This document shows, piece by piece, positions 38,569-53,022 of a stretch of 64,000 bases of DNA. The translations under genes were made by a program, and so were the position numbers. Position 1 is the first letter of the stretch, and each line of letters begins with the position of its first letter. The DNA comes from Candidatus Eiseniibacteriota bacterium (GTDB taxonomy: Bacteria; Eisenbacteria; RBG-16-71-46; SZUA-252). The DNA lies in NCBI GenBank assembly GCA_963703225.1, contig OY969801.1, positions 2,196,669 through 2,260,668 of the forward strand, given 5' to 3'. Below the pieces are notes generated by a model. That model saw only the letters and a program-made list of their open reading frames with translations. It did not search any database and was not told the DNA's origin.

Positions 38569-38645
38569 GGCTCCCTCAAGGAATTTTGCCGAAACCTAGC
38601 ACGATCCCCCTGACCGTCAAGGAGAAAGTGCCGAAAGTGGCGAAT

Positions 38646-39248: not shown

Positions 39249-39253
39249 CCGGG

Positions 39254-39565
39254 CTAGAAGAGACCCGGCGGGAGGCCCAGGCCGCCGGTGACCCGGCCCA
39301 TCTCCTCTTCGACCATCCGGGTGACCTTGGTTCGGGCGTCCTTGAGCGCGGCCAGTACGAGATCCTCGAGCAGGTCGGCTTCCTCGGGGTTGACCACGGC
39401 GGGGTCGATGGCGACCGCGGTGACCTCCTGGGCGCCGTTCATGGTGACCTTCACCTTCCCGCCGCCGGAAGATCCGATCAACTCGCGGGTCTTCAGCTCC
39501 GCCTGCACCTCAGCCATCTTGGCTTGAAGCGCCTGCGCCTGCTTCATCATCTGCTGGATGTTCAT
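39254..39565 (-). CDS. ybaB: YbaB/EbfC nucleoid-associated protein
   Basis: MMKQAQALQ..GSSGGGKVKV..LEDLVLAA, in dnaX-ybaB-recR synteny. Confidence 0.96.
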   Translation of the reverse strand: MNIQQMMKQAQALQAKMAEVQAELKTRELIGSSGGGKVKVTMNGAQEVTAVAIDPAVVNPEEADLLEDLVLAALKDARTKVTRMVEEEMGRVTGGLGLPPGLF

Positions 39566-41307
39566 GACGCTCCACTCCCCTGCGGGCCGGGCTTCAAGAT
39601 CTCCCCGTCAAAGAGCTCCACGATTCGCTGCACCAGGGCGTCGGGGCCCTCCGTGGGGTCGCCCCCCTCTTCGTCGTCGATGTCGGCCGGCACGGCGGCG
39701 GGCCGCACCCTGAAACCCTCGCCCGAGACCGCCTGGTCGCTGCTCACGCAGAGGAGGGTGGTGCCCTGCCCATAGAGCCGCTCGAATTCCTGATTCAGGA
39801 TCTCACGATTCTCCTTCATCTCGAGCATGGCCCGATGAAACGCGTGCTCCGGCGCAAGGGCTACCCGCACGTTCGATCCCGCGAGGCCGAGGAAGAGCCC
39901 CTCCTCCAGGCAGGTGCCGAGAAGGAGCTTTCGCTCTTTCACCCGATCGACGGCTTGCCGCCATCGCACGACCGCGTCCCCATCGGTCGCGGGCTCGATG
40001 GTCGCCTGGGCACGCTCGGCTCGAGGTGGGGGCTCCTCCGACGCGGGTCGGGGAACCGGCCGAGGCGCCGGCGCTGGAGGCGCAGGCGTGGGCTGCCGGG
40101 GTGAAGCCGTCGCGCGGCCCGGCGTCGGCGGCGGGGCCGTCCCGACGGGCGCTCCGCCGAGCCGCTGCTCGAGCGCTTCGAGCCGGCCGATCAGCTCCCC
40201 CACGTCGCTCGCGCTGGGGAGCGTGCAAAGCTCGACCAAACAGACCTCGATGAGAACCCGCGGCGCCTCCGCGCGGCGGAGCTGCCCGCGGCTCTCCAGT
40301 AGGAGCGAAAGCATCGCGCTCAGGTCGGTCGAGCGAAAGCGGGGTGCCTGGGCGGCGTAGCGGTCGCGATCCGCCGGAGCAGCCTCGATCAGCTTCGTGA
40401 GCGAGGGATCGACCGCCAACAGCAAGAGCTGTCTCAGGTGATGGGTCAGCCCGTCCGCGATCTCCTCGACGTCCATTCCGCCGTCGTAGAGCCGGTCGAG
40501 CGTCTCCAGCGCCCGCTTGGCGTCGCGCCCGGCGATCGCCTCTCCCAGATCGAAGAAGGCGTCGAGCCCGCCGAGGCCGAGCGCCTGGGCGACGACCGCC
40601 GCGGTGACCCCCTCGGGCGAGACCGCGAGCGCCTGGTCGAGCCGGCTCAGCGCGTCCCGGACACTGCCCTCCGACGCCCGGCTGATCATCCCGGCCGCGT
40701 CCTCGTCCAACGGGATCCGTTCCGCCTGGGCAATCTTCAAGAGGTGCGCCGCGATCTCCTCGGCTCGGAGCCTCCGAAACTCGAACACCTGGCACCGCGA
40801 CGCAATCGTGTCGGGGACTTCGAGCGCTTCCGTCGTGGCGAAGACGAAGCGGACGTGCGCCGGCGGCTCCTCGAGCGTTTTCAGAAGCGCGTTCCAGGCG
40901 AACTCGGTGAGCTGGTGCGCCTCATCGATGATGTAGACCTTCGACTTCCCGCCCGATGGAGCGTACTTGACGTTTTCTCGGAGGTTTCGGATCTCCTCGA
41001 TGCCGCGATTGCTGGCGCCGTCGATCTCGAGGACGTCCATCGAAGTGCCGGCCGTGATCTCGACGCAGGAGGGACACTCGTTGCAGGGCTCCGCCTCGCC
41101 TTCGCGGCGCTTGGCGCAATTGAGCGCCTTGGCGACGAGGCGTGCCGAGGTGGTCTTGCCGCTCCCTCGCGGCCCGGCGAAAAGATAGGCGTGCGCGACC
41201 CGGTTGGCGGCGACCGCTCGCTCGAGCGTGGTCCGGATTGGATCCTGCCCGACCAGGTCGGCAAAGCGCTGCGGCCTGTACTTTCGCGCGAGTGCGAGGT
41301 GGGACAC
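39562..41307 (-). CDS. dnaX: DNA polymerase III subunit gamma/tau
   Basis: LARKYRPQRF, GPRGSGKTT, EIDGASNRG, IIDEAHQL, LLKTLEEPP. Confidence 0.98.
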   Translation of the reverse strand: MSHLALARKYRPQRFADLVGQDPIRTTLERAVAANRVAHAYLFAGPRGSGKTTSARLVAKALNCAKRREGEAEPCNECPSCVEITAGTSMDVLEIDGASNRGIEEIRNLRENVKYAPSGGKSKVYIIDEAHQLTEFAWNALLKTLEEPPAHVRFVFATTEALEVPDTIASRCQVFEFRRLRAEEIAAHLLKIAQAERIPLDEDAAGMISRASEGSVRDALSRLDQALAVSPEGVTAAVVAQALGLGGLDAFFDLGEAIAGRDAKRALETLDRLYDGGMDVEEIADGLTHHLRQLLLLAVDPSLTKLIEAAPADRDRYAAQAPRFRSTDLSAMLSLLLESRGQLRRAEAPRVLIEVCLVELCTLPSASDVGELIGRLEALEQRLGGAPVGTAPPPTPGRATASPRQPTPAPPAPAPRPVPRPASEEPPPRAERAQATIEPATDGDAVVRWRQAVDRVKERKLLLGTCLEEGLFLGLAGSNVRVALAPEHAFHRAMLEMKENREILNQEFERLYGQGTTLLCVSSDQAVSGEGFRVRPAAVPADIDDEEGGDPTEGPDALVQRIVELFDGEILKPGPQGSGAS

Positions 41308-41333
41308 GAGGCGCTCCTAACGGGTCAGGGGCT

Positions 41334-41515
41334 GCCCCGGAGCCTGGAAGACGGCCCCCCCGCTTCTGGCTCGGGTCAGTTGGATCCGCGGCACATCGAG
41401 GCGATCACTGACCGCTGCTACCTTCCGGTCCTGACGGAGTTCGTGACTCTCGATTGCGCGGGAACTGGCCGTCAACGCCAAGCCACGAGAGGGCCAAAGT
41501 CCTGGCTCCGAGGCC
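41334..41515 (-). ncRNA. ffs: Signal recognition particle RNA (extended, about 180 nt)
   Basis: Helix-8 motif TCAGGACCGGAAGGTAGCAGC on the minus strand. Nested pairing continues out to GCCTCGGAGCCAGGA/TCCAGGCTCCGGGGC. Directly upstream of dnaX. Confidence 0.9.
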
Positions 41516-41544
41516 TTGGGTCGGTTCCCCTACTGGAACAGTTT

Positions 41545-41620
41545 TGGTGGAGATGACCGGGATCGAACCGGTGACCTCCTCGTTGCGAACGAGGCGCTCT
41601 CCCAACTGAGCTACATCCCC
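41545..41620 (-). tRNA. tRNA-Ala(CGC)
   Basis: Anticodon arm cctcg-TTCGCAA-cgagg, G3:U70 pair, CCA. Confidence 0.97.
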
Positions 41621-41643
41621 ACGGCATTGGGCGACTGCGATAC

Positions 41644-41733
41644 TGGCGGAGAGAGAGGGATTCGAACCCTCGAAGCACTTTCATGCTTACACGGTTTCCA
41701 ACCGTGCTCCTTCAGCCACTCGGACATCTCTCC
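41644..41733 (-). tRNA. tRNA-Ser(GGA)
   Basis: cacgg-TTGGAAA-ccgtg, long variable arm, CCA. Confidence 0.97.
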
Positions 41734-41779
41734 GGGAAGCTAAGGTGCACGCGCGCTCCTTCGCGCGGTGTCCATTCAA

Positions 41780-41869
<90 letters not shown>

Positions 41870-41894
41870 GCGGGGGAGAGTACGCGATCCGGAC

Positions 41895-42380
41895 CTACTT
41901 TTCCAGGCGGTTCATGGCGCGGCGGCGACTCTGAAAGAACGCTTCCAACACCGCGCCGCACTCCTCGGCGAGCACGCCCGGCAACACCTCGGCGCGGTGG
42001 TTCAAGCGGAGGTCTTGCGGCACCATGGCGAGCGAGCCGCACGCGCCCGCCTTTGGATCGCGGGCGCCGTAGACGATCCGCGCGATCCGCGCCAGCACCG
42101 ACGCGCCGGCGCACATGTGGCAGGGTTCCAGGGTGACGTAGAGGGTCGCTTCGTCCAGACGCCAGGTCTTGACCGTCTGCGCGGCCGCCCCGATCGCGAG
42201 AATCTCGGCGTGCGCCGTGGGATCCTGGGTCGACTCGACGCGGTTATGGCCGCGACCCACGATCCGGTTATCCCACACGACCACCGCGCCCACCGGCACT
42301 TCGCCCTCGGCGGCGGCCTCCCGCGCCTCGGCGAGCGCCGCTTCCATGAAGCGCTCGTCGGACGGGGTCTGCCCGATCAC
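41895..42380 (-). CDS. tadA: tRNA adenosine(34) deaminase
   Basis: EVPVGAVVV, DPTAHAEI, LYVTLEPCHMCAGA, DPKAGACGS. Confidence 0.97.
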   Translation of the reverse strand: MIGQTPSDERFMEAALAEAREAAAEGEVPVGAVVVWDNRIVGRGHNRVESTQDPTAHAEILAIGAAAQTVKTWRLDEATLYVTLEPCHMCAGASVLARIARIVYGARDPKAGACGSLAMVPQDLRLNHRAEVLPGVLAEECGAVLEAFFQSRRRAMNRLEK

Positions 42381-43066
42381 TTTTGAGGGAATTTCTTGAA
42401 CGCCAAGCGGATCAGGTCGCCCGCGACGTCCTCATAACGAGGAGGATCGGTCGCCTTCCGCGACTGGATGTATCCCGTTTCGTCGTAGGTGACGGAACCG
42501 CTGGAGACATCCACCTCCTGGGCAAAGCGCTGCTCGCGCGGGTCCTTCTCCCACGTCTTCTTGAAGGTCTTCAGGTCGAAGAGGGCGAATTGGAGGCCGA
42601 CGGTCGTGTTCGACTCTCCCCGGCCGATCACGTTCACCCGAACGTTCTCCCACTCCGCGACTTTGACAAAGAGAATCGCGTCCACCTGTAAGAGCGAATC
42701 CAGCCCCTCGACCGAGGTCGAGTCGAGGGTGCCGTACTTGGCCCACCGATCGGTCAGCTTCATGGAGCGATCGAGCATGCTCCGAGACTCGAGAATCCGC
42801 TCGGTGTCCGTGGGATGAAGGAACCGGGCCCGTTCGGGGGGCACCCCCTTCAGGCGTTCGCGGATCAGATCTCCCATGATCTTGGTCGCGCCGAGATCCG
42901 CGGAGCCGTTGAGGATCGGCATGATCGCCACGCGGATCGGTGGGGCCGGCGGAGCCTGCGGGGCCTTGTCGCTTGCCTTGTCCTCCTTCGCGGCGATCGA
43001 TGCGACGGCCAAAAGGGCGAGCGCGGCAAGCGCCGCGATGGAACGCGTGGACCGATGCTGGAACAT
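42377..43066 (-). CDS. Exported hypothetical protein (alpha/beta fold, DUF799/CsgG-like)
   Basis: Signal peptide and GAGGTG RBS before ATG 43066. The RVAIMPILNGS motif is only reminiscent of that family. Confidence 0.6.
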   Translation of the reverse strand: MFQHRSTRSIAALAALALLAVASIAAKEDKASDKAPQAPPAPPIRVAIMPILNGSADLGATKIMGDLIRERLKGVPPERARFLHPTDTERILESRSMLDRSMKLTDRWAKYGTLDSTSVEGLDSLLQVDAILFVKVAEWENVRVNVIGRGESNTTVGLQFALFDLKTFKKTWEKDPREQRFAQEVDVSSGSVTYDETGYIQSRKATDPPRYEDVAGDLIRLAFKKFPQK

Positions 43067-43131
43067 GATCTTCACCTCAGCGGGGCGACTCACGGCGTGG
43101 GGAATGGAGGCGGCGCTTCTGTTTGATTATG

Positions 43132-43208
43132 TGGCGCGCCCAGGAGGATTTGAACCCCCAACCTTCTGATCCGTAGTCAGACACTCTATCCAGTTGAGCT
43201 ATGGGCGC
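43132..43208 (-). tRNA. tRNA-Arg(ACG)
   Basis: tctga-CTACGGA-tcaga, CCA. Confidence 0.97.
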
Positions 43209-43235
43209 GCGCGACTGCTTTCCCGGGACCCGAGA

Positions 43236-43327
43236 TGGCGGAGAGGAGAGGATTCGAACCTCCGGACCGGTTTTACCCGATCAACCGCTTAGCAGGCGGC
43301 TGCCTTCAGCCACTCGGCCACCTCTCC
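43236..43327 (-). tRNA. tRNA-Ser(GCT)
   Basis: Anticodon loop CTGCTAA, long variable arm, CCA. Confidence 0.97.
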
Positions 43328-43381
43328 CCAGGCATGCAATCCTATTCAGCCGTAGCATGATAGCCGGGGTGGTACCGCCGG

Positions 43382-44329
43382 TCAAGGCGGCGCGGCCGGG
43401 CGCCCTCCCGAGAGATCCCATGCAGGCTCCACGTGGATCGTCACTTCCACCAGTTGCGGAAATTGACGCTGCAGATCCTCCTTAACCCCGTGGGCCAGGG
43501 CATGGCTCTCCCTCACCGACATGTCTGGCGCGACCTCCAGGTGCATGTCGGCGACGTAGTAGATACCCATTTTCCGCATGAGAAGTTTCTCCACTTTGTA
43601 GACCCCCGGCCGGGCCTCCGCGACCCGTCTCGCGTCTTCCACCAGGTAGCGGGCGGGGCTCGTGTCCATCAGCTCCTGGACCGCGGGATGGAGCTGCCGC
43701 CACCCCGTCAGAATGATGATCCCGCTCGCGAAGAGCGCGGCCCAGCTGTCGGCGGCCTCGAACCGCTTGCCGCCGACCAGCGCGAGGGCGATCCCGATCG
43801 CCGCCGCCCCGGAGGTGATCGCGTCCGCGCGGTGGTGCCAGGCATCGGTGCGGACGGCATGGCTCCCCGTCTCCCGCCCGACCCGGGACACGAACCGAAA
43901 CATGATTTCTTTGATCACCACGACGCCGATGACGACCGCGAGCGTGAAGGGGGCTGGGCCTTGGTGCGGAATCACGATCTGGTGGACCGACTCCGTGGCG
44001 ATCCCCACGCCCGCGCCGATCAGGAGGATCGCCACGAACGCGGCGGCGAGCGGCTCCGCCTTTCCGTGTCCGTACGGGTGGTCGGCGTCGGGCGGACGGG
44101 ACGCGACGTCGAGCCCGCCCCAGACGACGAGCGATCCCACCGAATCGCCGAGTGACTCCACCGCGTCGGCGACCAGGGCTTGGCTGTGTCCGAAAATTCC
44201 CGCCGCGAGCTTGCCCAGCCCCAGGAGGAGATTGACGGCGAGGCCGACGAGGCTGGAGCGCTTGCCTCGAACGTAGGGATTGGGGCTGGCGGGGCGTCCC
44301 GCGCGGACTTTGGAAGGCGGCTCGATCAT
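43382..44329 (-). CDS. Cation diffusion facilitator (FieF-like) transporter
   Basis: SQALVADAVES, PPDADHPYGHGKAE, DAWHHRADAITS, C-terminal VTIHVEP. Confidence 0.93.
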   Translation of the reverse strand: MIEPPSKVRAGRPASPNPYVRGKRSSLVGLAVNLLLGLGKLAAGIFGHSQALVADAVESLGDSVGSLVVWGGLDVASRPPDADHPYGHGKAEPLAAAFVAILLIGAGVGIATESVHQIVIPHQGPAPFTLAVVIGVVVIKEIMFRFVSRVGRETGSHAVRTDAWHHRADAITSGAAAIGIALALVGGKRFEAADSWAALFASGIIILTGWRQLHPAVQELMDTSPARYLVEDARRVAEARPGVYKVEKLLMRKMGIYYVADMHLEVAPDMSVRESHALAHGVKEDLQRQFPQLVEVTIHVEPAWDLSGGRPAAPP

Positions 44330-44332
44330 TTC

Positions 44333-45601
44333 TTATCGAAGTCGGTGCGCGAGCTCGACGGGGTCTACGTACACCGTGAAGCCTTCCTTCTCCACCCGCT
44401 CGAGATAGATCGACTGCGGTGCGTCGGCGTGATCGTACCGGAATCCGCCCACCTTGCCGAACTCAAAGCCCGCGCCCCATCCCGAAGTATCGCCGATGAC
44501 GGTTCCCGTCGGATCGTCAATGTGGCCGTTCCTAAGAGTGAAAATGTTCAGGAACGTGAGCTCCCATCCGGTCAGACCGATCTCCTGGCCCGACTTGGAC
44601 ATCGTGGTAGGCGTATTGGGAGTGCTCGGAGGTGGTACCAAACGTGATGAGAGGCTGAAGGATATCCACGATCCAACCGAATCGCTTCGCCGCGGAGGGA
44701 TTTCTCGGCACGCGCCGGGAGCGCCAAATCGACGTGGAATGCACCTCCCCAGTGCGAATCCTTGGCGATCGGGTCAGGCTGACTTGTATCGATAGTACGT
44801 TATCGTCGCGTCGTTGTCGAAATTGATGGCCGAAGAACCGTAACTGGCGTCGATGCGCGTTCGGACGAAGCGGTCAATCCAAGGGATAAACCCGGGGTAG
44901 TCGATCGAATTGTAGGGCGTGATCCGGATCAGCAGTCCGTGGTCTCGCTCGTCCGCCTCGCCGTATCCCGCGAGCCCGTCCAGGGTCACGCTGGCGGGAA
45001 ACAAGTCCACCTGGATCGACTTCCAGGTTTGCCCCAACGACACGTCGGCGTAGCGGCTAATCAGAGGGAGATCGAACCCGGCGACCCGTCCCAGGTTCTC
45101 GAGTAGCTCCGCCACGCTGAAGCCGACGCCGATGGCCTGAATCTTCTCGGTGCTGGTGAATACGCCGATGATATTTCCATCGACGTCTGTCGCGACGCTC
45201 TTCCCGTAGTTAAGCTCGAGACCGCCGACATACTTGATGGGCTTCCCCGCCATGTAGAGGCCGATCCCCCAGTAGCCCAGGGTGATCTGATCGGAAGTGA
45301 AAGAGACGTCGTCCGCGAGATCCGGAACAAGTTGGTTCTTCCCGTGCTCGTATCGAATTCCGCGGTGATATCCGAAGAGCGCCGGATTCACCCAACCGTT
45401 CGGGTCTCCACCCCAGAACACGGCCACGCCGGCCCGCCCCATTCCCCAGGCGCGGGCCGAGGGGTCGATGAGGGTCGCTTGTGCCCCGGAAAACGCGGCT
45501 CCTTGGGCGCGGGCTTCGGTTGGCGCGATGATCGGTAGGATCATGAGGGCGCCGAGGATTCGAAGTGTGAAGCCAAATGCAACCGTGTGCGTCGTTCGCA
45601 T
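44333..45601 (-). pseudogene. PorV/FadL-like outer-membrane beta-barrel protein, broken by about 3 frameshifts
   Basis: Signal peptide then DPSARAWGMGRAGVAVFWGGDPNGWVNPA. Coding-like sequence continues through three frames (breaks near 44794, 44690, 44600) to ..GFRYDHADAPQSIYL..VYVDPV. Confidence 0.6.
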
Positions 45602-45708
45602 GGAGAGCGCCTCAGTGAGCCTGCGAAAGGCAGACGAGTAGTCTGCAACAGGCCGCCGGCGATCACAACCGAAACGTAGCTTCGATCGTGCACAGCGCAC
45701 GATCCTGC

Positions 45709-45736
45709 TTGCATCTACTCCCGGCAGTTGTATGTT
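45709..45736 (+). promoter_or_regulatory. Sigma70-like promoter for the Arg-rich gene
   Basis: TTGCAT-16 nt-TATGTT about 110 nt upstream of the ATG. Confidence 0.45.
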
Positions 45737-45846
45737 GTGTTTGAGGGCGCCATTGGATCCAACGCCCTTGTGATCATCCCGCACGGCGACGTCCGCACAT
45801 GCAGGGGACGCCGTCAAACGCTGAACCGATGCACGGGAGGTCGATG

Positions 45847-46173
45847 ATGGCAGCAAGAAGAAGAAGGAGAAAGGCGAAGAAAGCTGTCCGGAAGACCGTA
45901 CGGCGGGTAAGAAGGCGGAAGCGCGTGGCCAAGCGCAGGGTTCGCAGGGTCGTGCGCAAGACCGTCCGCCGGAGGAGAGTCAAGAAGGCCGTTCGCCGGC
46001 GCAGGACCCGTCGCGCGGTGCGGAAGACTGTCCGCCGGAGGCGAGTCAAGAAGGCCGTCCGGCGCCGGAGAGTGAAGCGGGTTGTCCGCAAGGCAGTCCG
46101 CCGTCGCAGAAGGGCCAAGAAGGCCATCTCGGCCATGATGGAAGGCGGGCCCGAGGGCGGCGGGATGTTCTAG
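45847..46173 (+). CDS. Extremely basic Arg/Lys repeat protein (protamine / histone H1 / Hc2-like)
   Basis: 108 aa with 43 Arg and 16 Lys, about 22-aa repeat VRKTVRRRRVKKAVRRRRxxRx. GGGAGG RBS upstream, terminator downstream, synonymous codon variation between repeats. Confidence 0.8.
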   Translation: MAARRRRRKAKKAVRKTVRRVRRRKRVAKRRVRRVVRKTVRRRRVKKAVRRRRTRRAVRKTVRRRRVKKAVRRRRVKRVVRKAVRRRRRAKKAISAMMEGGPEGGGMF

Positions 46174-46203
46174 CCCGACTCATCCAGATATCGGAATCAA
46201 AGG

Positions 46204-46238
46204 CCGCCGATCGGGAAACCGGTCGGCGGTTCTTTGTT
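46204..46238 (+). terminator. Intrinsic terminator after the Arg-rich gene
   Basis: ccgccgatcgg-GAAA-ccggtcggcgg followed by ttctttgtt. Confidence 0.85.
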
Positions 46239-47097
46239 AGGTTTTGGGGCCGCTCGCGGCCGCGGAGGCCGATCGAATCGCCGCACTTCCCCCAGCGAGA
46301 ACCTTGCCGAGAAAGGCATGCACCACGGTGTTGAATTGGTCCGGCCGCTGCAGCGGCGCGAAATGGCTCACGCCCGGCAGGAGGATCAATTCCGCCCCGG
46401 GGATGGTCCGGGCCAGATATTCAGCATGCTCCGGCTTGATGAACTCGTCGTTCTCGCTTTGTACGATCGCGACGGGCACATGGATCTCCGCCAAATCGCT
46501 TGCCGAATAGTTGGGCTGCGTCTTCATCATCTCGCCGACCGCATCGGAGAACGCGCCGAATTGATCCGGCGTGGCCGACAGAAGGGAATAGTCCTTGGCG
46601 TGGCGATTGAAGCACCGTTGGAGGATCGGGCCGAACACGACCTCCCTGGTGCCGCTGGGGTCCATATTGCAGCCAAAGAAGAATACGCCCGCGATACGCG
46701 CGGGCGCCTTCATCGCCAGGATCAAAGCGATGCACGCGCCGTCGCTCCAGCCGACGACGGCTGCCCTTCCCACGTGCAATGCGTCCATCACGGCTAGAAC
46801 GTCGGATGCCATCAACTCGTACGTGTAGGACCGCGAGTCGCGTGTGCTGCGGCCGTGCCCGCGGCTATCGATGAGGACGAGGCGATAGCCAGAGCTGACC
46901 AGCATGGGAACCTGATATCCCCAATTGCCACTGTGGCCGAGGCCACCGTGCAGCAAGATTACGGGAGGGCCCGACCCATACGACGCGTACCAGATTCGAG
47001 CGCCGTCGTGGTCCACGTAGCCCTGATCGCTGCTGGCCGGCAAGGGCGCCGCACCCTGTGCTGCGAACTTCGTGAGGTCGTCGTCGAAGGATTCCAT
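46237..47097 (-). CDS. Alpha/beta hydrolase
   Basis: VILLHGGLG, IDSRGHGRS, nucleophile elbow GWSDGA, LPGVSHFAPLQ. ATG 47097 chosen as start. Confidence 0.93.
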   Translation of the reverse strand: MESFDDDLTKFAAQGAAPLPASSDQGYVDHDGARIWYASYGSGPPVILLHGGLGHSGNWGYQVPMLVSSGYRLVLIDSRGHGRSTRDSRSYTYELMASDVLAVMDALHVGRAAVVGWSDGACIALILAMKAPARIAGVFFFGCNMDPSGTREVVFGPILQRCFNRHAKDYSLLSATPDQFGAFSDAVGEMMKTQPNYSASDLAEIHVPVAIVQSENDEFIKPEHAEYLARTIPGAELILLPGVSHFAPLQRPDQFNTVVHAFLGKVLAGGSAAIRSASAAASGPKT

Positions 47098-47143
47098 GTT
47101 GAGTCTGGCCGGGCCCCAGTGCCGAAGACCTGACCGATTGAAT

Positions 47144-47202
47144 TGGCGGAGGGGGTAGGATTCGAACCCACGGTGCCTTTCAGCACAGCGGTTTTCAAGA
47201 CC
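47144..47202 (-). pseudogene. 3' half of tRNA-Ser(TGA), att-site duplication
   Basis: Runs from GGTCTTGAAA through CCA. Matches 54688-54746 except for 2 substitutions in the variable arm (GTGCT-GAAA-GGCAC vs GTGCC-GCAA-GGCAC). Confidence 0.95.
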
Positions 47203-47320
47203 TATCACTCCCGGGAGAGCATCGACGAACATCGACGAGAAGCCACCATTTCCGCATAAGTTACCCCTCACACTCCAACGATCATTCTCTCCCATGTTTG
47301 CCCTTGCGTGCTCGTGTTTT

Positions 47321-47342
47321 GGTGACCGCTAGGTGACCGCGC
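47321..47342. repeat. Tandem 11-bp-period arm-type site (ggtgaccgc x2)
   Basis: ggtgaccgcta-ggtgaccgcgc, about 120 bp inside the att duplicate. A 10-bp tandem atcgacgaac-atcgacgaga also lies at 47221-47240. Confidence 0.65.
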
Positions 47343-47403
47343 ACTCTCGAGCGCGTTGTCTGCGTCGCCGCCCGAGTCATGGGTCTTGTTGCAGAAGCCG
47401 CGG

Positions 47404-47646
47404 TCAGGGTCGCCCGTCCGGACCACGCCGCCAATCCGGCGTGAACACGAAGTAGTGGCCGAGCACCAGCTCGGCGGGCAGCCCGTTCAACCGGCACAGG
47501 AGCCACGTGTGGTAGGCGTGCTCCCGGCAGAACAGGCCGAAATCGAGCCCGCCACCGTCGACTATCCGCGACAGCTCGGTGTAGAGGTGGTTCAGCTGCC
47601 GCTTCACAGCGCGAGTCAGGATCCTCCGAGTCAGGCCCTCCGTCAC
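47404..47646 (-). CDS. Small hypothetical protein, probably a phage-like remnant
   Basis: 80-aa ORF whose GTG overlaps the stop of an upstream truncated frame ending IGTEYGIVIEEL*. Confidence 0.45.
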   Translation of the reverse strand: MTEGLTRRILTRAVKRQLNHLYTELSRIVDGGGLDFGLFCREHAYHTWLLCRLNGLPAELVLGHYFVFTPDWRRGPDGRP

Positions 47647-47680
47647 AGCTCCTCGATCACGATGCCGTACTCGGTTCCGA

Positions 47681-48712
47681 TCACCGCTTGACCTCCCAGG
47701 GCCGCGCCTGACGGTCGAGATCGGCGGCGACCCGAGCGTAGGGCATGCCCGAGATGGACAGAACCGACTTCGACTCTGGCATCAGCGTCACGTATTTTGC
47801 CGTCGTGCCGCCTCGAAAGTCTCTCACCAGGAGGCGGCCGAGCCTCCGCCAGCCGCGGTCGCCGAGCCTGCCGCTGAGCGCGCGACGGAATGCGTTGGCC
47901 ACGATGTCCGCCAGGCGCAGCCCCGAACTCGCTCGCGAGTCCTCAAAGCGCAGATCCGCCATGATCTTTCGGATGTCGCTGGAGTGGAACGGTCCGGCGC
48001 GGCCCGCCGGCATTCCCCTCTGGAGGTGATCAGGCGCTTTCGGCAGCGTGGGATTCTGGAAGGGGGCCATCGCGGAGTAGTCGAACCCCTTGAGGGAGAT
48101 CAAGCCCTCGCGAAGGGAGATCGTCTGAACCATTGGCATCACGATGTCGGTCCACGTCCGCTCGTAGTCCGTCGGCTTGCTCTCCTTCGCGTCGAGGCGC
48201 CACGAGAAGTTGCCGAGCGACTTCGGCTCGGTCTGGACGAAGCGAATCTCGCCCGCCTGCAGCGTGTTCCAGACGGCCTGCGTCAGCAGCGCTGACTGGG
48301 TGTACAGGGGAACGGAGATCGCCTCGACGCGGGAGGCGAGCGCACGGGCGTCCTCCCGCGCGGACTCCTTGAACTCCGGCCGGTCAGTCGAAGCGCGAAT
48401 CTTCTCCGCCTGCCCCCGTCTGTGCGCCTCGATATCGGCTTTGGTGTGCCGACCCATGTCGATCACGACGACGGTCAGCATCACATTGAAGTTGGTCAGA
48501 TGGGTGACCACCTTGTCGACCTGGCGCTCCGACAGCTGGCTACCCTTCGGCTCCACCTTGCCGAGCCTCCAGCCGGAGACGATCCGCTCGAACCCCGTCA
48601 GGACGACCTGCAGATCCTTCTCCCCGACGGCCAGCGCGGCGACGCAGCAGATGGACGGCGAGCCGTCGGACGGGAACGCGAAAGGGCCCGACTCGTCTAT
48701 GAAGATGTGCAA
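47681..48712 (-). CDS. DUF3800 (RNase H-like fold) protein
   Basis: N-terminal IFIDESG, C-terminal SGLRLADIVANAF. TTG start. Confidence 0.8.
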   Translation of the reverse strand: MHIFIDESGPFAFPSDGSPSICCVAALAVGEKDLQVVLTGFERIVSGWRLGKVEPKGSQLSERQVDKVVTHLTNFNVMLTVVVIDMGRHTKADIEAHRRGQAEKIRASTDRPEFKESAREDARALASRVEAISVPLYTQSALLTQAVWNTLQAGEIRFVQTEPKSLGNFSWRLDAKESKPTDYERTWTDIVMPMVQTISLREGLISLKGFDYSAMAPFQNPTLPKAPDHLQRGMPAGRAGPFHSSDIRKIMADLRFEDSRASSGLRLADIVANAFRRALSGRLGDRGWRRLGRLLVRDFRGGTTAKYVTLMPESKSVLSISGMPYARVAADLDRQARPWEVKR

Positions 48713-48770
48713 CAGCCCCCCGTCAACGCACCTTCACGATCACGCGGCTTCCCCTCGAACGACCGCACCT

Positions 48771-49035
48771 TCATTCCTCCCACAGACCTCGGCCTTCCTT
48801 CCTCGCCTTCTTCTCCAGCTTCCGAAACTCTCATCAGCTTGTTCGGGTGTACCGATTCGGGGGTGTCCACACCGATCAGCCGCACCGTCTCGGTCTTGCT
48901 CCCGATCTTCACCTTGATTGTGTCGCCATCGACGACCCTGACGACCTTGCCCCGCTCAGCGGCGTGCGCGAGTACCGGCAGCAGGACCGCTAACGCAAGT
49001 AGCGACCGAAGGAGCCGCCGCGAACCCGGGCTCAC
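48771..49035 (-). pseudogene. Thermonuclease (SNase) gene with a large internal deletion
   Basis: Signal peptide and VVRVVDGDTIKV..VRLIGVDTPESVHPNK join directly (near 48840) to the out-of-frame C-terminus EFRKLEKKARKEGRGLWEE*. Confidence 0.8.
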
Positions 49036-49064
49036 GCCGGCATTTGCCGTCGAGGATTGCAAGT

Positions 49065-49832
49065 TTAGTCCCCGCTCTTCGTTGTGCTGAGGGGCTGTGC
49101 CTTGGGTTCCAGGTCGGCCGCCGTAAACTTGCTCGAGAATTTTCGAGCCTCTTCTAGAACCGGTTCAGTAGGAGCTTCCATCACGCGCCCATCAGCGAGA
49201 CGAACCCGAGCAACGTACCCTATGGACGCGTAGTGCGCCTGGACATCATTCTCTGAGTACAGGTTCCACTCCCCAATAAGCTCCCTTGTGCCGACACTCG
49301 CGTCACCGACCTCCACGAAACTGAGGGTCCTCACATGATTCCCCCAGATGTCGAAGGTGAGAAAGTTCACCTGTACCGCCCTGATCGAATCCTTGACTGT
49401 GACTCTGAATCTGCTGCGATAGCGATATCCGTTTGCATAGAGCGTGGTTACTCCTGGAGTCCCCTCGAGATCTACCGGAATTACGCGGAAGTGCACGGCT
49501 ATCCACTCGCGCCTAAGCGAGGAGTTCTTGGCGACGGCAATCCCAAGTCCCAAATTAGTGGTTATGCTGCCGCCGTCGGCACGTGTAACGGTGGCACCTG
49601 CACTTTCGGATTTGGGCGCGACCGGTGCTTGAGCGGAGGACGACGTGTCCTTCTTGTGACGGATTGAAAGCAGATTCTCCGACGCGAAGCTTCGCACCGC
49701 CAGGTCGGCAATGACCAGAACCGTCACCGCCCCGGTGAGGATGGACAGAACGGTCGCAGTCCGGACCTTTGTCGCCGGAATGAGGCGAGTCAGCACATAG
49801 AGGCCGAGAACGATGCCAATCTCTTGAATCAT
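49065..49832 (-). CDS. Membrane-anchored hypothetical protein
   Basis: 255 aa, two N-terminal hydrophobic segments, beta-rich C-terminal domain, AGGAG RBS. Confidence 0.75.
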   Translation of the reverse strand: MIQEIGIVLGLYVLTRLIPATKVRTATVLSILTGAVTVLVIADLAVRSFASENLLSIRHKKDTSSSAQAPVAPKSESAGATVTRADGGSITTNLGLGIAVAKNSSLRREWIAVHFRVIPVDLEGTPGVTTLYANGYRYRSRFRVTVKDSIRAVQVNFLTFDIWGNHVRTLSFVEVGDASVGTRELIGEWNLYSENDVQAHYASIGYVARVRLADGRVMEAPTEPVLEEARKFSSKFTAADLEPKAQPLSTTKSGD

Positions 49833-49971
49833 GGTCGCTCCTTTGGAGCTTGTGCAGAGCGCTCCCTCGACCTAGCGAGTGTCCGACGCGCCCCTGTCGA
49901 GATGACTTCGACCAACTGATGGCAGATCAGTATCACGGTAAGGATTGATGTGCTCGGCGCGAAACCAGGAG

Positions 49972-50805
49972 TCAGCCTCGCCATCTTTTACGCCGCTGAA
50001 GTGCTGTCGTGTACCGGCACTGCGGATATGACGTGCAGCCCATGAACTTTCCCCTCGGACCCTTGATGGTGCGCAGCGGACTGCCGCACCTTGGGCAGAC
50101 GCCCGGCTCTGCGGTGGGCGTCGGGTTGAAGTCGCCGGGGACGACATCGCCCTCAGAAAGATGTTCCAGCAGGAGAGCTTGTAGCTGCGGCAATTCGATG
50201 ATCGAAATGGCCTTCCCCTTGATCCATTCCTGCGCCTGCGGCGACACCTTGCCCGTAGTAACCACGAAGGCTGACGACGCTTCCGTTGCGTGCATCGTTC
50301 CGTAGAGGTCTCTTAGGATCGGCTCACCAACGGAACCCTTCACCCGCTTACATTGGATGATCGACTTCTTCCCCTCGCGGGTCGCGTAGGCGTCCACCCC
50401 TCCATCACCGGTATACGGTGTGCGGGCCACTTCGTATCCCATGCGCTCGAATAGCTGGCAAACCAGTTCCTCAAAGTCCCTCGGGTCCATGGCCCGTACA
50501 AACTCCGGCAGTCGGATTTGTGCTAGCCACTCGGCCCGCCGCCGCCGGTGTTCGGCAGCCCGTGCTCGCGCTTCCTCCTCCTGGCGGAGCCGGGCTTCCT
50601 CGACACATTGCGGGCATAACGTCGGCACTGCTGCAGCACCCCGAAGGCCGTGGGCGCAGGGTTCAATCGCACGAGCGCGCCTTCCCCGTTGCTCTCTCCA
50701 GGCCCTTTCAATTGGGGAGAAGAGTACGGCGCCCAAGAATGGCACTACGATCCAGAGGATCCAAGGGCCGCCCAGCACATAGCCCAGTACCTTCCCGAAA
50801 TCCAT
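49972..50805 (-). CDS. Mrr-family restriction endonuclease with N-terminal TM and C-terminal topoisomerase-type Zn ribbon
   Basis: MDPRDFEELVCQLFERMGY, GDGGVDA, IQCKR, C-terminal CPRCG..GKFMGCTSYPQC. N-terminal TM and CAHG..CPQC. Confidence 0.9.
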   Translation of the reverse strand: MDFGKVLGYVLGGPWILWIVVPFLGAVLFSPIERAWREQRGRRARAIEPCAHGLRGAAAVPTLCPQCVEEARLRQEEEARARAAEHRRRRAEWLAQIRLPEFVRAMDPRDFEELVCQLFERMGYEVARTPYTGDGGVDAYATREGKKSIIQCKRVKGSVGEPILRDLYGTMHATEASSAFVVTTGKVSPQAQEWIKGKAISIIELPQLQALLLEHLSEGDVVPGDFNPTPTAEPGVCPRCGSPLRTIKGPRGKFMGCTSYPQCRYTTALQRRKRWRG

Positions 50806-50860
50806 GCCCCAGTCTATACCCAGGCCACAGTCTGGGTGGAATGGCCGAACACGGGGCTAG

Positions 50861-50995
50861 CCTCACCCTCTCAGCCCTGAGCTTCGCGTGGGACTCCGCG
50901 CCGGGTGGGGATGACCTGAGGCGGGCCGGCGGACAGGCAAGGCGACCGGGGGAACCCCGCCCCCGGGGTGATCTCGCGTCCTCGTGGCAATCCGC
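50861..50995 (+). repeat. Dispersed direct repeat, copy 1 (about 135 bp)
   Basis: Core agccc-N-gag-ttcgc-tgggactccgcgccgggtgg-ga-gacctgaggcgggcc shared with 52794-52870 and 54234-54362. Confidence 0.92.
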
Positions 50996-51108
50996 CGCAG
51001 TAGGTGGGGCCGCGACGGGCTCCGCCGTGCCTGCGCCGGGTGAGGGGACGCCAACCTGGATCCCGGGCCGGGTTGACTCCCGGCGGCTGCTGGGTGTTTG
51101 CTTTCGAG

Positions 51109-51777
51109 ATGGAGAATTACGAACCCTGCGCTGAGTGCGGGGGAATCCATCTCCCCGGGCGCCGCCGCTGCCCGCGCTGCGGTAAGGTGCACGTCGTAGG
51201 GCCGCCAGATCCCGCCCGTGTCCGGTACCTCGCTCTTGACTACGAGTGCCCGGCACCGGTCCTGCGCCTCGAGTATCCGCTCCTGCCGTCGGCGATGGGC
51301 CGGACGGCCATCGTTCCAGCGGTGGACAAATCCGGCCGGGAGCCGAGCGAGCGCTTTCAGGGGGCACTCTTTGCTCACGCCTTGACCGAGCTGTCTGGAT
51401 ATCACGTTCACGTCGGGTTCGGCCCGAAGGAACACCGCGCGGGCGACGAGGATTGCGTCGTGCGCTGGCAGGTCGACGAGGACTTCGACTTTTCCCCGGT
51501 TCAACTCAAGCGCCTCGTATCCGCCGAGACAAACGCCTCGGCCGATCTGGAGCGCGACGTGAACCGGAAGCTGGAGGGAGTCATCGCTCCGACGCTGCAC
51601 TTCGTTTGGACGATCAACCGCGAGATGCTCCTGAAGCCTCGGGAGCTGCGGCTCCCTGGGCTCCAGGTCGCGGGCGTCTGGATCCTCAACTCCGCCGGCC
51701 CCGACGGGACGCGCTGGCACCTCCATGGCGACTTCGTCCACCGCATCGTCGGCCTTGAGCTCCCATACCCGCAATGA
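51109..51777 (+). CDS. Zn-ribbon + putative PD-(D/E)xK-type nuclease
   Basis: N-terminal CAEC..CPRC and a GDEDC..PVQLK motif resembling D..D..QxK nuclease sites. Family assignment is inference. Confidence 0.6.
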   Translation: MENYEPCAECGGIHLPGRRRCPRCGKVHVVGPPDPARVRYLALDYECPAPVLRLEYPLLPSAMGRTAIVPAVDKSGREPSERFQGALFAHALTELSGYHVHVGFGPKEHRAGDEDCVVRWQVDEDFDFSPVQLKRLVSAETNASADLERDVNRKLEGVIAPTLHFVWTINREMLLKPRELRLPGLQVAGVWILNSAGPDGTRWHLHGDFVHRIVGLELPYPQ

Positions 51778-52511
51778 GGGATCCGCACGTCGAGTCCATC
51801 ATCTACCGTCTGGAGGACCCCGACGTATTCTTCGAGGGGGTCCGCGACCTGCCTGTCGACAACCCCGATTTCCGCGGCCTCCTGTCAGACGGTACGCTCA
51901 CGCTCAGGCCGAAAGCCCATTTTTCCACCGTAGAGGAGGCCCGTGTCCCCGCTGACGCGTTCGTGCGGGCTTGGGAGATTTCGGGAGGCCTGGCGCTGGG
52001 TCATCCCGGATTCCAATTCCGCTTCGAGGCCGCCGAAGCCGTAGGCATGGATCCCGACACGGGCAAACCCGTGGATCAATTCACAGCGGTCGTCCCGGCC
52101 GTGGTGACCGCCACTCTCCATGTCCAGGTGCCGAAGGGCACCTACCCGCCTCCCCCTCAGGTCTCGCGCGCCGATCCAGACGCAGAAGCAATGTGGAACC
52201 GGTTCAGCGGGTATCTCGAGGGAAAGGAGCCGCTTCTGGGTATGGCCTACGCCTGCCTCACGATTCTCGAGCGCGGCGAGCATAGAAGGGACGCGGCCGC
52301 CCGGCTCTCGATCAGCCTCGCGGTCTTGAGCAAGTTGGGCAATCTGAGTTCTGCCCGAGGAGACAAGCGGAGCGCGCGGAAGTGGCATCCCCGAAATTCC
52401 CCGCTCACCCCAGATGAGGAAGCTTGGGTTCGGGCCGCCATTCAGGCAATCATCAAGCATCTCCTGACACGGATGTCGGGCCAGAAGCTCTCGATGAGCG
52501 ATGTTCTATAG
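51774..52511 (+). CDS. Hypothetical protein translationally coupled (ATGA) to the upstream nuclease-like gene, possibly HEPN-like
   Basis: 245 aa. Helical C-terminal half with an Rx5H-like RSARKWH motif. Confidence 0.7.
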   Translation: MRDPHVESIIYRLEDPDVFFEGVRDLPVDNPDFRGLLSDGTLTLRPKAHFSTVEEARVPADAFVRAWEISGGLALGHPGFQFRFEAAEAVGMDPDTGKPVDQFTAVVPAVVTATLHVQVPKGTYPPPPQVSRADPDAEAMWNRFSGYLEGKEPLLGMAYACLTILERGEHRRDAAARLSISLAVLSKLGNLSSARGDKRSARKWHPRNSPLTPDEEAWVRAAIQAIIKHLLTRMSGQKLSMSDVL

Positions 52512-52559
52512 CTTTCAGTTTGGTTTCAGGGCCTCTGGACTCGCTGTAAGGCCTCGGCC

Positions 52560-52965
52560 ATGAGTTCCAAGGGCGGCAGTGCCAGTAAGGGCGGCGAGGA
52601 GGCGAAGCGCGGCAAGATCTCCGAGAAGCGGATTCCGTTCGAGTCGGGCGATTTCTATCTCATCATCGCGCGGCGGGCGCTGGAGGAGGCGCTGCCCCCC
52701 CGACGGCGTCCATCTCGGCGGGTGGACTTTCAGCGAGGAGCCGCTCGTCGAGAAGCTGCCGTCGGATCACTTCCGGTTCGCGGTGACGTGGGCCCTCACC
52801 AACGCAGCCCGGAGGTTCGCATGGGACTCCGCGCCGGGTGGGGAGGACCTGAGGCGGGCCGGGCAGACAATCTCTACACTTTCTGGGCCGCTCCCCATGA
52901 GCCGCCCTACGAATGGAGAATCCCAACGAACGCGCGAGGGCTCCACGAGCCAAAGCTGGGGGTAG
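52560..52965 (+). pseudogene. Short hypothetical gene with a frameshift in a C7 run, reading into repeat copy 2
   Basis: MSSKGG..RRALEEALPP then, in the +1 frame after 52695-52701, DGVHLGGWTFSEEPLVEKLPSDHFRFAVTWALTNAARRFAWDSAPGGEDLRRA. Confidence 0.45.
52794..52870 (+). repeat. Dispersed direct repeat, copy 2 (core only)
   Basis: cctcacc..cagcccggaggttcgcatgggactccgcgccgggtggggaggacctgaggcgggccgggcagacaa. Confidence 0.92.
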
Positions 52966-52985
52966 CCCGTCCCCAACCCTGTTGC

Positions 52986-53015
52986 TGGACAACCCGTTAA
53001 CGGGGTGGGTACACT
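52986..53015 (+). promoter_or_regulatory. Promoter of the FRG gene with a palindrome in the spacer
   Basis: TGGACA-18 nt-TACACT. The spacer holds the perfect 12-bp palindrome cccgttaacggg. Confidence 0.45.
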
Positions 53016-53022
53016 GCCCGGC

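What the first reader, a model, noticed from the sequence alone, without database searches (positions are those of the whole stretch)
45700..46238. Stand-alone gene for a protamine-like protein (55% Arg+Lys)
Seen: a 108-aa ORF with 43 Arg and 16 Lys, all in the first 93 aa, built from about 22-aa repeats with Arg4-5 clusters spaced by Val/Ala/Thr, and a short acidic Gly tail (MMEGGPEGGGMF). It has a complete transcription unit: sigma70-like promoter, hairpin-rich leader of about 100 nt, GGGAGG RBS and a strong GAAA-tetraloop terminator. Repeats differ mostly at synonymous positions, arguing for selection on the protein. Known: Chlamydia Hc2 and bacterial H1-like proteins are Lys/Ala-rich, whereas Arg clusters are the hallmark of protamines. 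Inference: a DNA/RNA/polyphosphate-condensing protein for dormancy, stress or anti-phage genome shielding.
Basis: partly seen in the sequence, partly recalled or inferred. Interest (0 to 1): 0.65.

Follow-up and report, generated by a model that had tools for sequence, protein, structure and literature searches.

The report
Arginine-rich histone-H1-like protein gene
This is a real, transcribed and conserved small gene of an uncultured soil and freshwater bacterium (Candidatus Eisenbacteria) that encodes one long, extremely positively charged helix, which most likely coats DNA or another polyanion as bacterial histone-H1-like proteins do; it is an unannotated arginine-rich variant of a known kind.

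Summary
Window 45847-46173 (+) encodes a 108-aa protein with 43 Arg and 16 Lys, all in the first 93 residues, and the tail ISAMMEGGPEGGGMF. It is the most Arg/Lys-rich stretch among 23,486 open frames of the 3.1-Mb genome. A GGGAGG ribosome-binding site lies 6 nt before the ATG, and a GC hairpin follows the stop.

The gene is real:
- Relatives exist in 16 of 206 Eisenbacteria genomes and in metagenome contigs.
- N-terminus, tail design and ribosome-binding sites are conserved.
- dN/dS is 0.14 in this frame.
- A promoter-like motif (TTGCA-N15/16-TGTAnnnTG) recurs in five loci.
- The leader pairs an anti-SD with the SD.
- RNA contigs of relatives in a freshwater metatranscriptome begin at 45754/5.

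The gene is accessory: 3 of 10 genomes of the genus carry it.

No Pfam, NCBIfam, PHROG, PADLOC or PDB match reaches significance. Lys-richer relatives touch the chlamydial Hc2 model only below threshold. The family profile also retrieves HU proteins with similar basic tails.

Best reading: a tightly regulated polycation that binds DNA, or RNA or polyphosphate, like H1-type proteins. The ligand is untested. Anti-phage shielding has no support.

The parts
45630..45646 (.). Perfect inverted repeat GCAGAC-N5-GTCTGC; candidate operator about 63 nt upstream of the -35-like hexamer
   Evidence: Read directly. Conserved in G009 and in metagenome contig L135, where the divergent neighbour is a different gene. 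Its function is inferred.
45709..45738 (+). Promoter-like element: TTGCAT (45709-45714), 16-nt spacer, TGTATGTTG containing TATGTT (45731-45736)
   Evidence: Not called by the sigma-70 consensus scan. The motif TTGCA-N15/16-TGTAnnnTG is conserved in the window, G009, L135, G143, G185 and L136.
45743..45846 (+). 5' leader of about 100 nt. It contains hairpin P1 (45743-45749 with 45763-45769), an anti-SD GATCATCCCG (45772-45781) pairing with CGGGAGGTC (45834-45842), and an inner hairpin (45785-45796 with 45804-45815).
   Evidence: The consensus fold of window and G009 gives 28 pairs, 3 of them with compensatory double changes in the inner hairpin. The anti-SD:SD helix appears in the MFE folds of G009, L135 and one reconstructed RNA variant. 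MFE z-scores are not significant. RNA contigs start at 45754/5.
45835..45840 (+). Shine-Dalgarno GGGAGG, 6 nt before the ATG
   Evidence: Every family member examined has a GGAG-type SD 5-9 nt before its start codon.
45847..46173 (+). CDS, 108 aa plus TAG: a polycationic repeat protein
   Evidence: dN/dS is 0.135 against the G009 orthologue. Orthologues and relatives.
45952..46083 (+). Two full 66-nt (22-aa) repeat units, VRKTVRRRRVKKAVRRRR(T/V)(R/K)R(A/V), each made of two 11-residue sub-units
46126..46170 (+). Non-basic C-terminal tail ISAMMEGGPEGGGMF (Met-rich, two Glu, Gly/Pro)
   Evidence: Tails of the same design occur in relatives, for example DMMEGPEGTMF, AMMDETPMM, KMMEGPEGMGM, AMMEGSPEMGTP, GMMGEGGMGQMP and IMNMLEGGM.
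46202..46231 (+). Terminator-like GC hairpin (13 pairs, GAAA loop) followed by CTTTGTT
   Evidence: Equivalent hairpins follow the stop in G009, L135 and L136.

Best explanation
The gene encodes a stand-alone polycationic protein of the bacterial histone-H1-like kind. It is a roughly 100-residue helix carrying about +56 charge, made of 11-residue Arg/Lys units punctuated by Val/Ala/Thr. It ends in a short Met-rich, slightly acidic tail.

Shown here: it is a real, conserved, transcribed accessory gene with its own promoter-like element, structured leader, strong ribosome-binding site and terminator.

Inferred: the protein binds nucleic-acid phosphate backbones without sequence specificity, most likely chromosomal DNA, and bridges or compacts them as Hc1/Hc2, HU basic tails and protamines do. 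Because such a protein is potentially toxic, its synthesis is kept in check by a leader helix that occludes the Shine-Dalgarno sequence, and possibly by an upstream operator. The conserved tail may serve as a handle for a partner, a protease or self-limitation.
For: Gene reality:
- Composition is extreme and unique in the genome.
- dN/dS is 0.135 in the + frame, 0.27 in the mirror antisense frame and above 1 in the other frames.
- The start, N-terminus (MAxR(R/K)) and tail design are conserved in about 20 relatives.
- Every member has an SD before its start.
- Terminator hairpins are conserved.

Expression:
- Two RNA contigs (95% and 88% identical) from a freshwater metatranscriptome cover 45754-45967.
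- Apart from tRNAs and pieces over two other coding genes (mglA-like, dnaX), they are the only coding-gene contigs in a 20-kb stretch.
- Their depth (2-5) is similar to that of near-identical EF-Tu/ribosomal-region contigs (about 3).

Regulation: promoter motif conserved in five loci; anti-SD:SD helix with a compensating inner hairpin.

Function:
- AlphaFold2 predicts one helix over residues 2-99, mean pLDDT 89.6 for the whole model.
- Lys-richer relatives give weak Hc2 (PF07382, E=0.015) and NF038053 matches.
- The family profile retrieves HU proteins (PF00216) carrying KKAVKR-type basic tails at E about 1e-6. The same repeat style is thus fused to a bona fide DNA-binding domain.
- Established knowledge: Hc1/Hc2 and HU tails condense DNA.
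Against: - No biochemical evidence exists, and the ligand is unknown.
- All similarity to Hc2, H1-like or HU tails is below family thresholds and may be purely compositional.
- The genome already has two intact HU/IHF-type genes.
- The gene is absent from most close relatives, so it is not a core chromatin component.
- The helix prediction comes from a single sequence.
- Leader MFE values are not better than shuffles, and covariation rests on two to three distinct sequences.
- The metatranscriptome data are unstranded assembled contigs and may contain DNA.
Confidence: 0.5

Rival explanations
1. It is an RNA- or ribosome-directed polycation. It would act as an arginine-rich RNA chaperone or translation modulator, possibly binding its own structured leader for autoregulation, rather than as a chromatin protein.
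For: Arg clusters are the hallmark of arginine-rich RNA-binding motifs (established knowledge). The H1-like KPAA region of PhaF binds mRNAs upstream of the SD and activates translation (PMC12818456). The gene has a conserved structured leader with an SD-occluding helix. Its apparent RNA level is similar to that of translation genes.
Against: Patchy presence (3 of 10 genomes in the genus) argues against a core ribosomal role. No similarity to any ribosomal or RNA-chaperone family was found. The fusion partners found for the repeat style are HU DNA-binding domains.
Confidence: 0.2
2. It is a polyphosphate-granule protein. The polycation would bind polyP and organise or tether granules during starvation, as AlgP does.
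For: AlgP, an H1-like repeat protein, localises to polyP granules and spaces them (PMC9239181). The genome encodes PPK1 and PPK2. Charge density is very high.
Against: There is no linkage to ppk genes. PPK genes are near-universal, so their presence is uninformative. The PPK1 match is split over two frames in this assembly. AlgP has a folded N-terminal part and KPAA repeats, which are absent here.
Confidence: 0.12
3. It has another role for a polycation. Candidates are an intracellular toxin or growth brake of a mobile or accessory module, an antimicrobial peptide-like product, or a nitrogen-rich storage protein.
For: Distribution is accessory and patchy, and neighbours vary: OMP-like gene, CDF transporter, hydrolase, Ser/Thr kinase. 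A defence island starts about 1 kb downstream. Translational control is tight. Arg makes up 40% of residues.
Against: No signal peptide or export genes. No partner antitoxin ORF in the unit. No PADLOC, PHROG or phage hit. GC content is like the genome. The orthologue in G009 is not next to a defence island.
Confidence: 0.08
4. It is not a protein-coding gene on this strand. The open frame would be a by-product of a repeat, or the antisense 120-aa frame (45774-46136) would be the real product.
For: The antisense frame is open in all homologues and shares third codon positions with the sense frame, so it also shows dN/dS below 1 (0.27). None of the forms tried is in the 15-billion-protein collection by exact look-up.
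Against: The SD, the conserved ATG, and the conserved N- and C-termini and stop are all on the + strand in every member. The lowest dN/dS is in the + frame. The promoter motif and terminator are oriented for the + strand. The antisense frames have no SD and variable ends.
Confidence: 0.03

Closest known systems
Chlamydial histone H1-like proteins Hc2 (HctB; Pfam PF07382, NCBIfam NF038052) and Hc1 (HctA)
   Same: Small stand-alone proteins made almost only of basic residues plus Ala/Val in short tandem repeats. Repeat number varies between strains. Expression is potentially toxic and under post-transcriptional control; for hctA an sRNA is involved (my own knowledge). Lys-richer relatives of the window protein score weakly on PF07382.
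   Different: The window protein gives no hit at all, and its relatives score 15.8 bits against a cut-off of 40. It is Arg-dominated (73% of basic residues) rather than Lys/Ala pentamers. It has 9/11-residue units, a conserved Met-rich tail, and comes from a free-living FCB-group candidate phylum.
C-terminal basic tails of actinobacterial HU (HupB/Hlp/HupS type)
   Same: Repeats of the type KKAVKR(T/A)AAKKAV are retrieved by the family profile at E about 1e-6. These tails are known DNA-binding and compacting extensions (my own knowledge).
   Different: There is no HU fold (PF00216) in the window protein. The HU tails are Lys/Ala-rich and lack the Met-rich end. The similarity may be compositional.
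Pseudomonas AlgP and PhaF (KPAA-repeat H1-like regions)
   Same: Low-complexity polycationic regions that bind polyanions: DNA and polyP granules for AlgP (PMC9239181), mRNAs for PhaF (PMC12818456).
   Different: Those are Lys/Pro/Ala repeats, predicted disordered and attached to folded N-terminal domains. Here there is no Pro in the basic part, a predicted helix and no other domain.
Eukaryotic protamines
   Same: Arg4-5 clusters separated by a few neutral residues, more than 40% Arg and very high charge density.
   Different: No homology. The window protein is twice as long, contains 16 Lys, and has no Cys/Ser/Pro in its basic part. It is predicted helical in isolation and grades into Lys-rich relatives.

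Membership tests
Hc2 / HctB (Pfam PF07382; NCBIfam NF038052) | Score at or above the curated cut-off of the family model | tested here: not met
   The window protein gives no hit even at E<=10. Relatives reach 15.6-15.8 bits against a cut-off of 40 (PF07382) and 7.9-10.3 bits against 135 (NF038052).
Hc2 / HctB (Pfam PF07382; NCBIfam NF038052) | Lys/Ala-rich pentamer repeats | tested here: not met
   The units are 11 (or 9) residues, rich in Arg and Val. Arg is 73% of the basic residues.
Hc2 / HctB (Pfam PF07382; NCBIfam NF038052) | Binds and condenses DNA | not testable with these tools
   Needs EMSA, microscopy or heterologous expression.
Burkholderia-type histone H1-like protein (NCBIfam NF038053) | Score at or above the cut-off (80 bits) | tested here: not met
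   The window protein gives no hit. Relatives score 8.8-13.5 bits.
HU with basic C-terminal tail (Pfam PF00216 plus tail) | HU/IHF DNA-binding fold | tested here: not met
   No PF00216 match in the 108-aa protein. It consists of the repeat region only.
HU with basic C-terminal tail (Pfam PF00216 plus tail) | Basic K/R-A-V repeat tail | tested here: met
   Profile A5 retrieves HU-tail proteins P0005, P0006, P0008, P0009 and others at E between 1.6e-6 and 9e-4. Homology as opposed to shared composition is not resolved.
Protamines (eukaryotic sperm nuclear basic proteins) | Arg clusters of 4-6 making up about half of the protein | tested here: met
   Six R4-R5 clusters and 40% Arg.
Protamines (eukaryotic sperm nuclear basic proteins) | Sequence relationship to protamine families | tested here: not met
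   No Pfam hit of any kind. No PDB-sequence hit.
Eisenbacteria polycationic repeat family (defined here) | 82-110 aa; N-terminus MAxR(R/K); 48-57% R+K in 9/11-residue units; short Met/acid/Gly tail; own SD | tested here: met
   Alignments A1 and A5. Present in 16 of 206 genomes of the phylum by profile search, plus metagenome proteins P0002, P0003, P0004, P0014 and P0018.

The most novel reading that the evidence does not exclude
Eisenbacteria and related soil lineages carry a switchable 'bacterial protamine'. This would be an alpha-helical Arg-cluster polycation whose translation is gated by an SD-occluding leader and perhaps by its own product. When released, it would drive reversible condensation of the nucleoid, or of an RNA/polyphosphate condensate, for dormancy. 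The conserved Met-rich tail would act as the release or degradation handle. Such a domain-free, regulated charge-neutralising system would be distinct from HU, Dps and histone-fold chromatin.
Probability: 0.2. Interest if true: 0.65.

Novelty: new variant of a known kind. Interest (0 to 1): 0.4.

Why it matters
Domain-free polycationic proteins escape both gene callers and homology searches. None of the forms tried here was in a 15-billion-protein collection, and HMMER against 1.8 billion representatives found one relative. Their spread in uncultured bacteria is therefore underestimated.

This case adds a well-delimited family in a candidate phylum that has no cultured member. The family spans Arg-rich to Lys-rich forms. 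It has a conserved tail, a conserved promoter motif and a leader that appears to gate translation, and there is evidence of substantial transcription in nature.

It is a convenient test object for two questions: how Arg-based versus Lys-based polycations organise bacterial DNA, RNA or polyphosphate, and how cells keep such proteins harmless. It does not overturn a current view.

Tried and rejected
- Pfam, NCBIfam, PHROGs and PADLOC scans of the protein and relatives gave nothing above threshold.
- A PDB sequence search with the family profile gave nothing.
- A word-indexed search of 5.8 billion proteins and phmmer over 1.84 billion representatives with the single sequence each found only P0002. 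Low-complexity correction limits both.
- Exact look-up of 18 alternative sense and antisense forms found none on record. This was uninformative about annotation.
The scan with the OMP-like neighbour found nothing.
- Phage links were tested with tblastn against 50,697 phage records and a viral-contig scan. Both were negative.
- Rfam found no known RNA family in the leader.
- Conserved gene neighbourhood was rejected. Neighbours differ between the window, G009, L135, G157 and G093. G003 and G005 keep the OMP-like gene without the basic gene.
- A ribosomal-protein reading was rejected because of the patchy distribution.
- The leader as a thermodynamically exceptional fold was not supported (z = -0.2 and -0.85).
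- A fold search of the AlphaFold model was not run, because a single long helix gives meaningless matches.
- EF-Tu as an expression yardstick is only rough, because contigs from many organisms pile up on conserved genes.

Full report
**What is there**

Window 45847-46173 on the + strand is an open frame of 108 codons plus TAG. The product is MAARRRRRKAKKAVRKTVRRVRRRKRVAKRRVRRVVRKTVRRRRVKKAVRRRRTRRAVRKTVRRRRVKKAVRRRRVKRVVRKAVRRRRRAKKAISAMMEGGPEGGGMF.

It has 43 Arg and 16 Lys (54.6%), all within residues 1-93. Only two residues are acidic. Net charge is about +56. Six R4-R5 clusters are spaced by Val/Ala/Thr/Lys.

The basic part is built of 11-residue sub-units. Two full 22-aa (66-nt) units lie at 45952-46083. 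These two units are 86% identical as protein but 74% as DNA. Eleven of their 17 nucleotide differences are at third codon positions, and 9 differing codons are synonymous against 3 non-synonymous.

Among all 23,486 stop-to-stop frames of at least 70 aa in the 3.12-Mb genome, this is the most Arg/Lys-rich. The other 24 top-ranked frames are out-of-frame Arg/Pro/Ser artefacts with almost no Lys.

**Organism**

The window lies in a single-contig, 3.12-Mb genome. Its alanyl-tRNA synthetase is 70-72% identical to those of Candidatus Eisenbacteria MAGs and at most 49% identical to any other lineage listed. Eisenbacteria is a candidate phylum that, to my knowledge, has no cultured member.

**Is it a gene, and on which strand?**

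A profile of four orthologues finds relatives in 16 of 206 genomes of the phylum, covering 9 of 83 genera. Further members come from metagenome proteins and contigs: P0002, P0003, P0004, P0014, P0018, L135 and L136.

All members share these features:
- length of 82-110 aa;
- an N-terminus of the form MA-x-R-(R/K);
- 48-57% Arg+Lys in 9- or 11-residue units;
- a short non-basic tail rich in Met with one to three acidic residues and Gly/Pro, for example AMMEGGPEGGGMF, DMMEGPEGTMF, AMMDETPMM, KMMEGPEGMGM, KMMEGGEGGMM, AMMEGSPEMGTP, GMMGEGGMGQMP and IMNMLEGGM;
- a GGAG-type Shine-Dalgarno sequence 5-9 nt before the start.

Against the same-genus orthologue in G009 (74% identical protein), dN/dS is 0.135 with saturated dS. 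The mirror antisense frame necessarily shares wobble positions and gives 0.27. All other frames give values above 1. The alignment was built on the + frame protein, which favours that frame somewhat.

The antisense 120-aa frame is open in every homologue simply because Arg/Lys/Val/Ala codons have no stop-forming complements. It has no SD and no conserved ends.

The in-frame ATGs at 45799 and 45844 are not conserved in G009 or L135. The start is therefore 45847.

**Transcription unit**

The consensus scan finds no sigma-70 promoter. Even so, this segment is among the best-conserved stretches of the locus between the window and G009. The motif TTGCA(T/A/C)-N15/16-TGTAnnnTG recurs upstream of the gene in G143, G185 and the metagenome contig L136. 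This is a phylogenetic footprint of a real promoter, perhaps of a lineage-specific type.

A perfect inverted repeat, GCAGAC-N5-GTCTGC (45630-45646), lies about 63 nt further upstream. It is kept in G009 and in L135, even though in L135 the divergent neighbour is the CDF transporter rather than the OMP-like gene. It is a candidate operator.

The leader is about 100 nt long. Its consensus fold has three parts:
- a 5' hairpin (45743-45769);
- a long-range helix pairing GATCATCCCG (45772-45781) with CGGGAGGTC (45834-45842), which includes the SD;
- an inner hairpin (45785-45815) in which three pairs change on both sides between the window and G009.

The SD-occluding helix is the minimum-free-energy solution for G009, L135 and one RNA variant that I reconstructed from listed differences. 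That reconstruction is approximate. In the window's own MFE fold the SD pairs elsewhere. Folding energies are not better than shuffled controls. The structure therefore rests on conservation and a few compensatory changes from only two to three distinct sequences, and it is suggestive rather than proven.

A 13-pair GC hairpin with a GAAA loop and a weak T-run follows the stop. Equivalent hairpins follow the stop in G009, L135 and L136.

**Expression**

One freshwater metatranscriptome (X3) holds two assembled contigs, 95% and 88% identical to the window. They cover 45754-45967 and 45755-45908, that is, the leader and the first third of the CDS. Both begin at the same place, 18-19 nt after the -10-like element.

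Across 36000-55999, the other places with appreciable RNA signal are:
- tRNA genes (the same bin also holds the SRP RNA gene);
- the mglA-like gene, which is conserved in many organisms;
- one divergent contig over dnaX.

None of the immediate neighbours of the basic gene is covered.

A 99%-identical strain is present in the same run. It has contigs of depth about 3 on the EF-Tu/ribosomal-protein region. That is similar to the depth of 2-5 seen on the basic-protein gene.

This suggests a highly transcribed gene. The caveats are that the contigs are unstranded, contig depth is a poor measure of expression, and DNA carry-over cannot be excluded.

**Distribution and context**

The gene is accessory. 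Only 3 of 10 genomes of the genus have it. G003 and G005 keep the orthologous OMP-like neighbour but have no basic ORF next to it.

Neighbours differ between loci:
- In the window, an alpha/beta hydrolase lies downstream.
- In G009, a Ser/Thr kinase lies downstream.
- In L135, a CDF transporter lies upstream.
- In G093, a response regulator is adjacent.

The gene is single-copy and has the genome's GC content.

A defence island described in earlier notes of this scan starts at about 47144. There is no PADLOC or PHROG match and no phage homologue, and the orthologue in G009 has no island beside it. The anti-phage idea therefore has no support.

**What it resembles**

The window protein has no Pfam, NCBIfam or PDB-sequence match.

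The Lys-richer relatives (G093, G157) touch the chlamydial Hc2 model PF07382 at E = 0.015-0.018 (about 16 bits, cut-off 40). They touch the Burkholderia H1-like model NF038053 at E = 0.06-0.4. Both are below threshold, so membership is not met.

The ten-member family profile retrieves more family members from 5.8 billion proteins. It also retrieves a set of HU proteins (PF00216) whose C-terminal tails are KKAVKR(T/A)AAKKAV repeats, at E between 1.6e-6 and 9e-4. The same repeat style thus occurs fused to a bona fide DNA-binding domain. This is a Rosetta-stone-type hint for DNA as the ligand, although shared composition rather than common descent may explain the match.

Within the family, Arg/(Arg+Lys) runs from 0.40 to 0.77.

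Arg codons AGA/AGG make up 37% of Arg codons in the gene, against 8.4% genome-wide. This is what frequent single-step Lys (AAG) to Arg (AGG) exchange would leave behind. The first five Arg codons are all AGR in both orthologues, which also keeps the initiation region purine-rich.

AlphaFold2, run on the single sequence, predicts one uninterrupted helix over residues 2-99, with mean pLDDT 89.6 for the whole model. The spacing of non-basic residues in the Arg-rich members peaks near 3.6-3.7 residues, as expected for a narrow Val/Ala ridge on a cationic helix. The 9-mer members peak at 4.5, and the window's strongest peak is at 4.4 with a second at 3.65. A fixed amphipathic face is therefore not a family-wide constraint.

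**Mechanism proposed**

Shown: a conserved, autonomously transcribed and apparently well-expressed gene for a roughly +56 polycation, with a leader able to mask its SD.

Inferred, with about 0.5 confidence: the protein binds phosphate backbones non-specifically, most likely chromosomal DNA. The Arg clusters would give bidentate phosphate contacts. The long helix would allow bridging or charge neutralisation, as with Hc1/Hc2, HU tails and protamines.

Synthesis would be restrained by the SD-occluding helix, and possibly by a regulator at the upstream inverted repeat, because uncontrolled expression of such proteins is harmful.

The conserved Met-rich tail is unexplained. Candidates are a partner-docking or degradation handle, or a helix cap.

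**Rivals**

Published H1-like regions bind RNA (PhaF, PMC12818456) and polyphosphate granules (AlgP, PMC9239181). An RNA- or translation-directed role (0.2) or a polyP role (0.12) is therefore plausible. The genome has PPK1 and PPK2 and two intact HU/IHF-type genes. Toxin, antimicrobial or nitrogen-store roles (0.08) and a non-coding artefact (0.03) are less likely.

**Novelty and verdict**

This is not categorically new. Stand-alone and tail-borne H1-like polycations are known in Chlamydia, Bordetella, Burkholderia, Pseudomonas and Actinobacteria. Earlier notes of this scan list similar unannotated genes in other uncultured lineages, including an Arg-rich one in Acidobacteria. Those notes are unchecked and were not used as evidence.

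It is nevertheless a previously uncatalogued family with its own signature: an Arg-dominant helical 11-mer, a Met-rich tail, a conserved promoter motif and a gated leader, in a candidate phylum without cultured members. I rate it a new variant of a known kind, with interest 0.4.

Noticed in passing
window 45630-45646: Perfect inverted repeat GCAGAC-N5-GTCTGC upstream of the promoter-like element. It is conserved in G009 and in soil metagenome contig L135, where the divergent neighbour gene is different. It is a candidate operator for an unknown regulator.
   Followed up: partly
window 45847-46170: AGA/AGG make up 16 of 43 Arg codons (37%) against 8.4% genome-wide. The first five Arg codons are all AGR in both the window and G009. 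This is consistent with frequent Lys-Arg exchange and/or an unstructured initiation region.
   Followed up: partly
proteins P0005, P0006, P0008, P0009, P0016, P0020-P0023 and P0019: The family profile pulls HU proteins with long KKAVKR-type tails. It also pulls one 120-aa protein (P0019, on a 43-kb contig) in which the same repeats follow an N-terminal module containing YKSALTGRFVS. These are possible domain fusions that could inform function.
   Followed up: no
own genome G000:C1:1409327-1409595 and 860872-861346: An HU-like match is split over three frames and the PPK1 match over two frames. These are either indel errors of a long-read assembly or pseudogenes.
   Followed up: no
window 44774-45601 (-): The divergent neighbour is a 275-aa signal-peptide protein with only a weak PorV/PorQ-like match. 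It has paralogues in the genome, is 650 aa long in G003, and is missing between the CDF transporter and the basic gene in L135.
   Followed up: partly
window 37314-38410 (-): A pair resembling MglA (small Ras-like GTPase) and MglB (roadblock). The GTPase gene attracts many metatranscriptome contigs from diverse organisms.
   Followed up: no
window 33791-41470: Core DNA-metabolism neighbourhood: recA, recR, dnaX and SRP RNA (41371-41470), followed by a tRNA cluster. SMC lies at 5696-8767. The basic-protein gene therefore sits in chromosomal core DNA next to an island, not inside one.
   Followed up: no
L002 / G009:C10:800-1108 and G009:C11:327043-327351: The orthologue appears twice in G009, once at a contig start and once inside a 1.09-Mb contig, with identical scores. 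This is probably an assembly duplicate rather than two copies.
   Followed up: no
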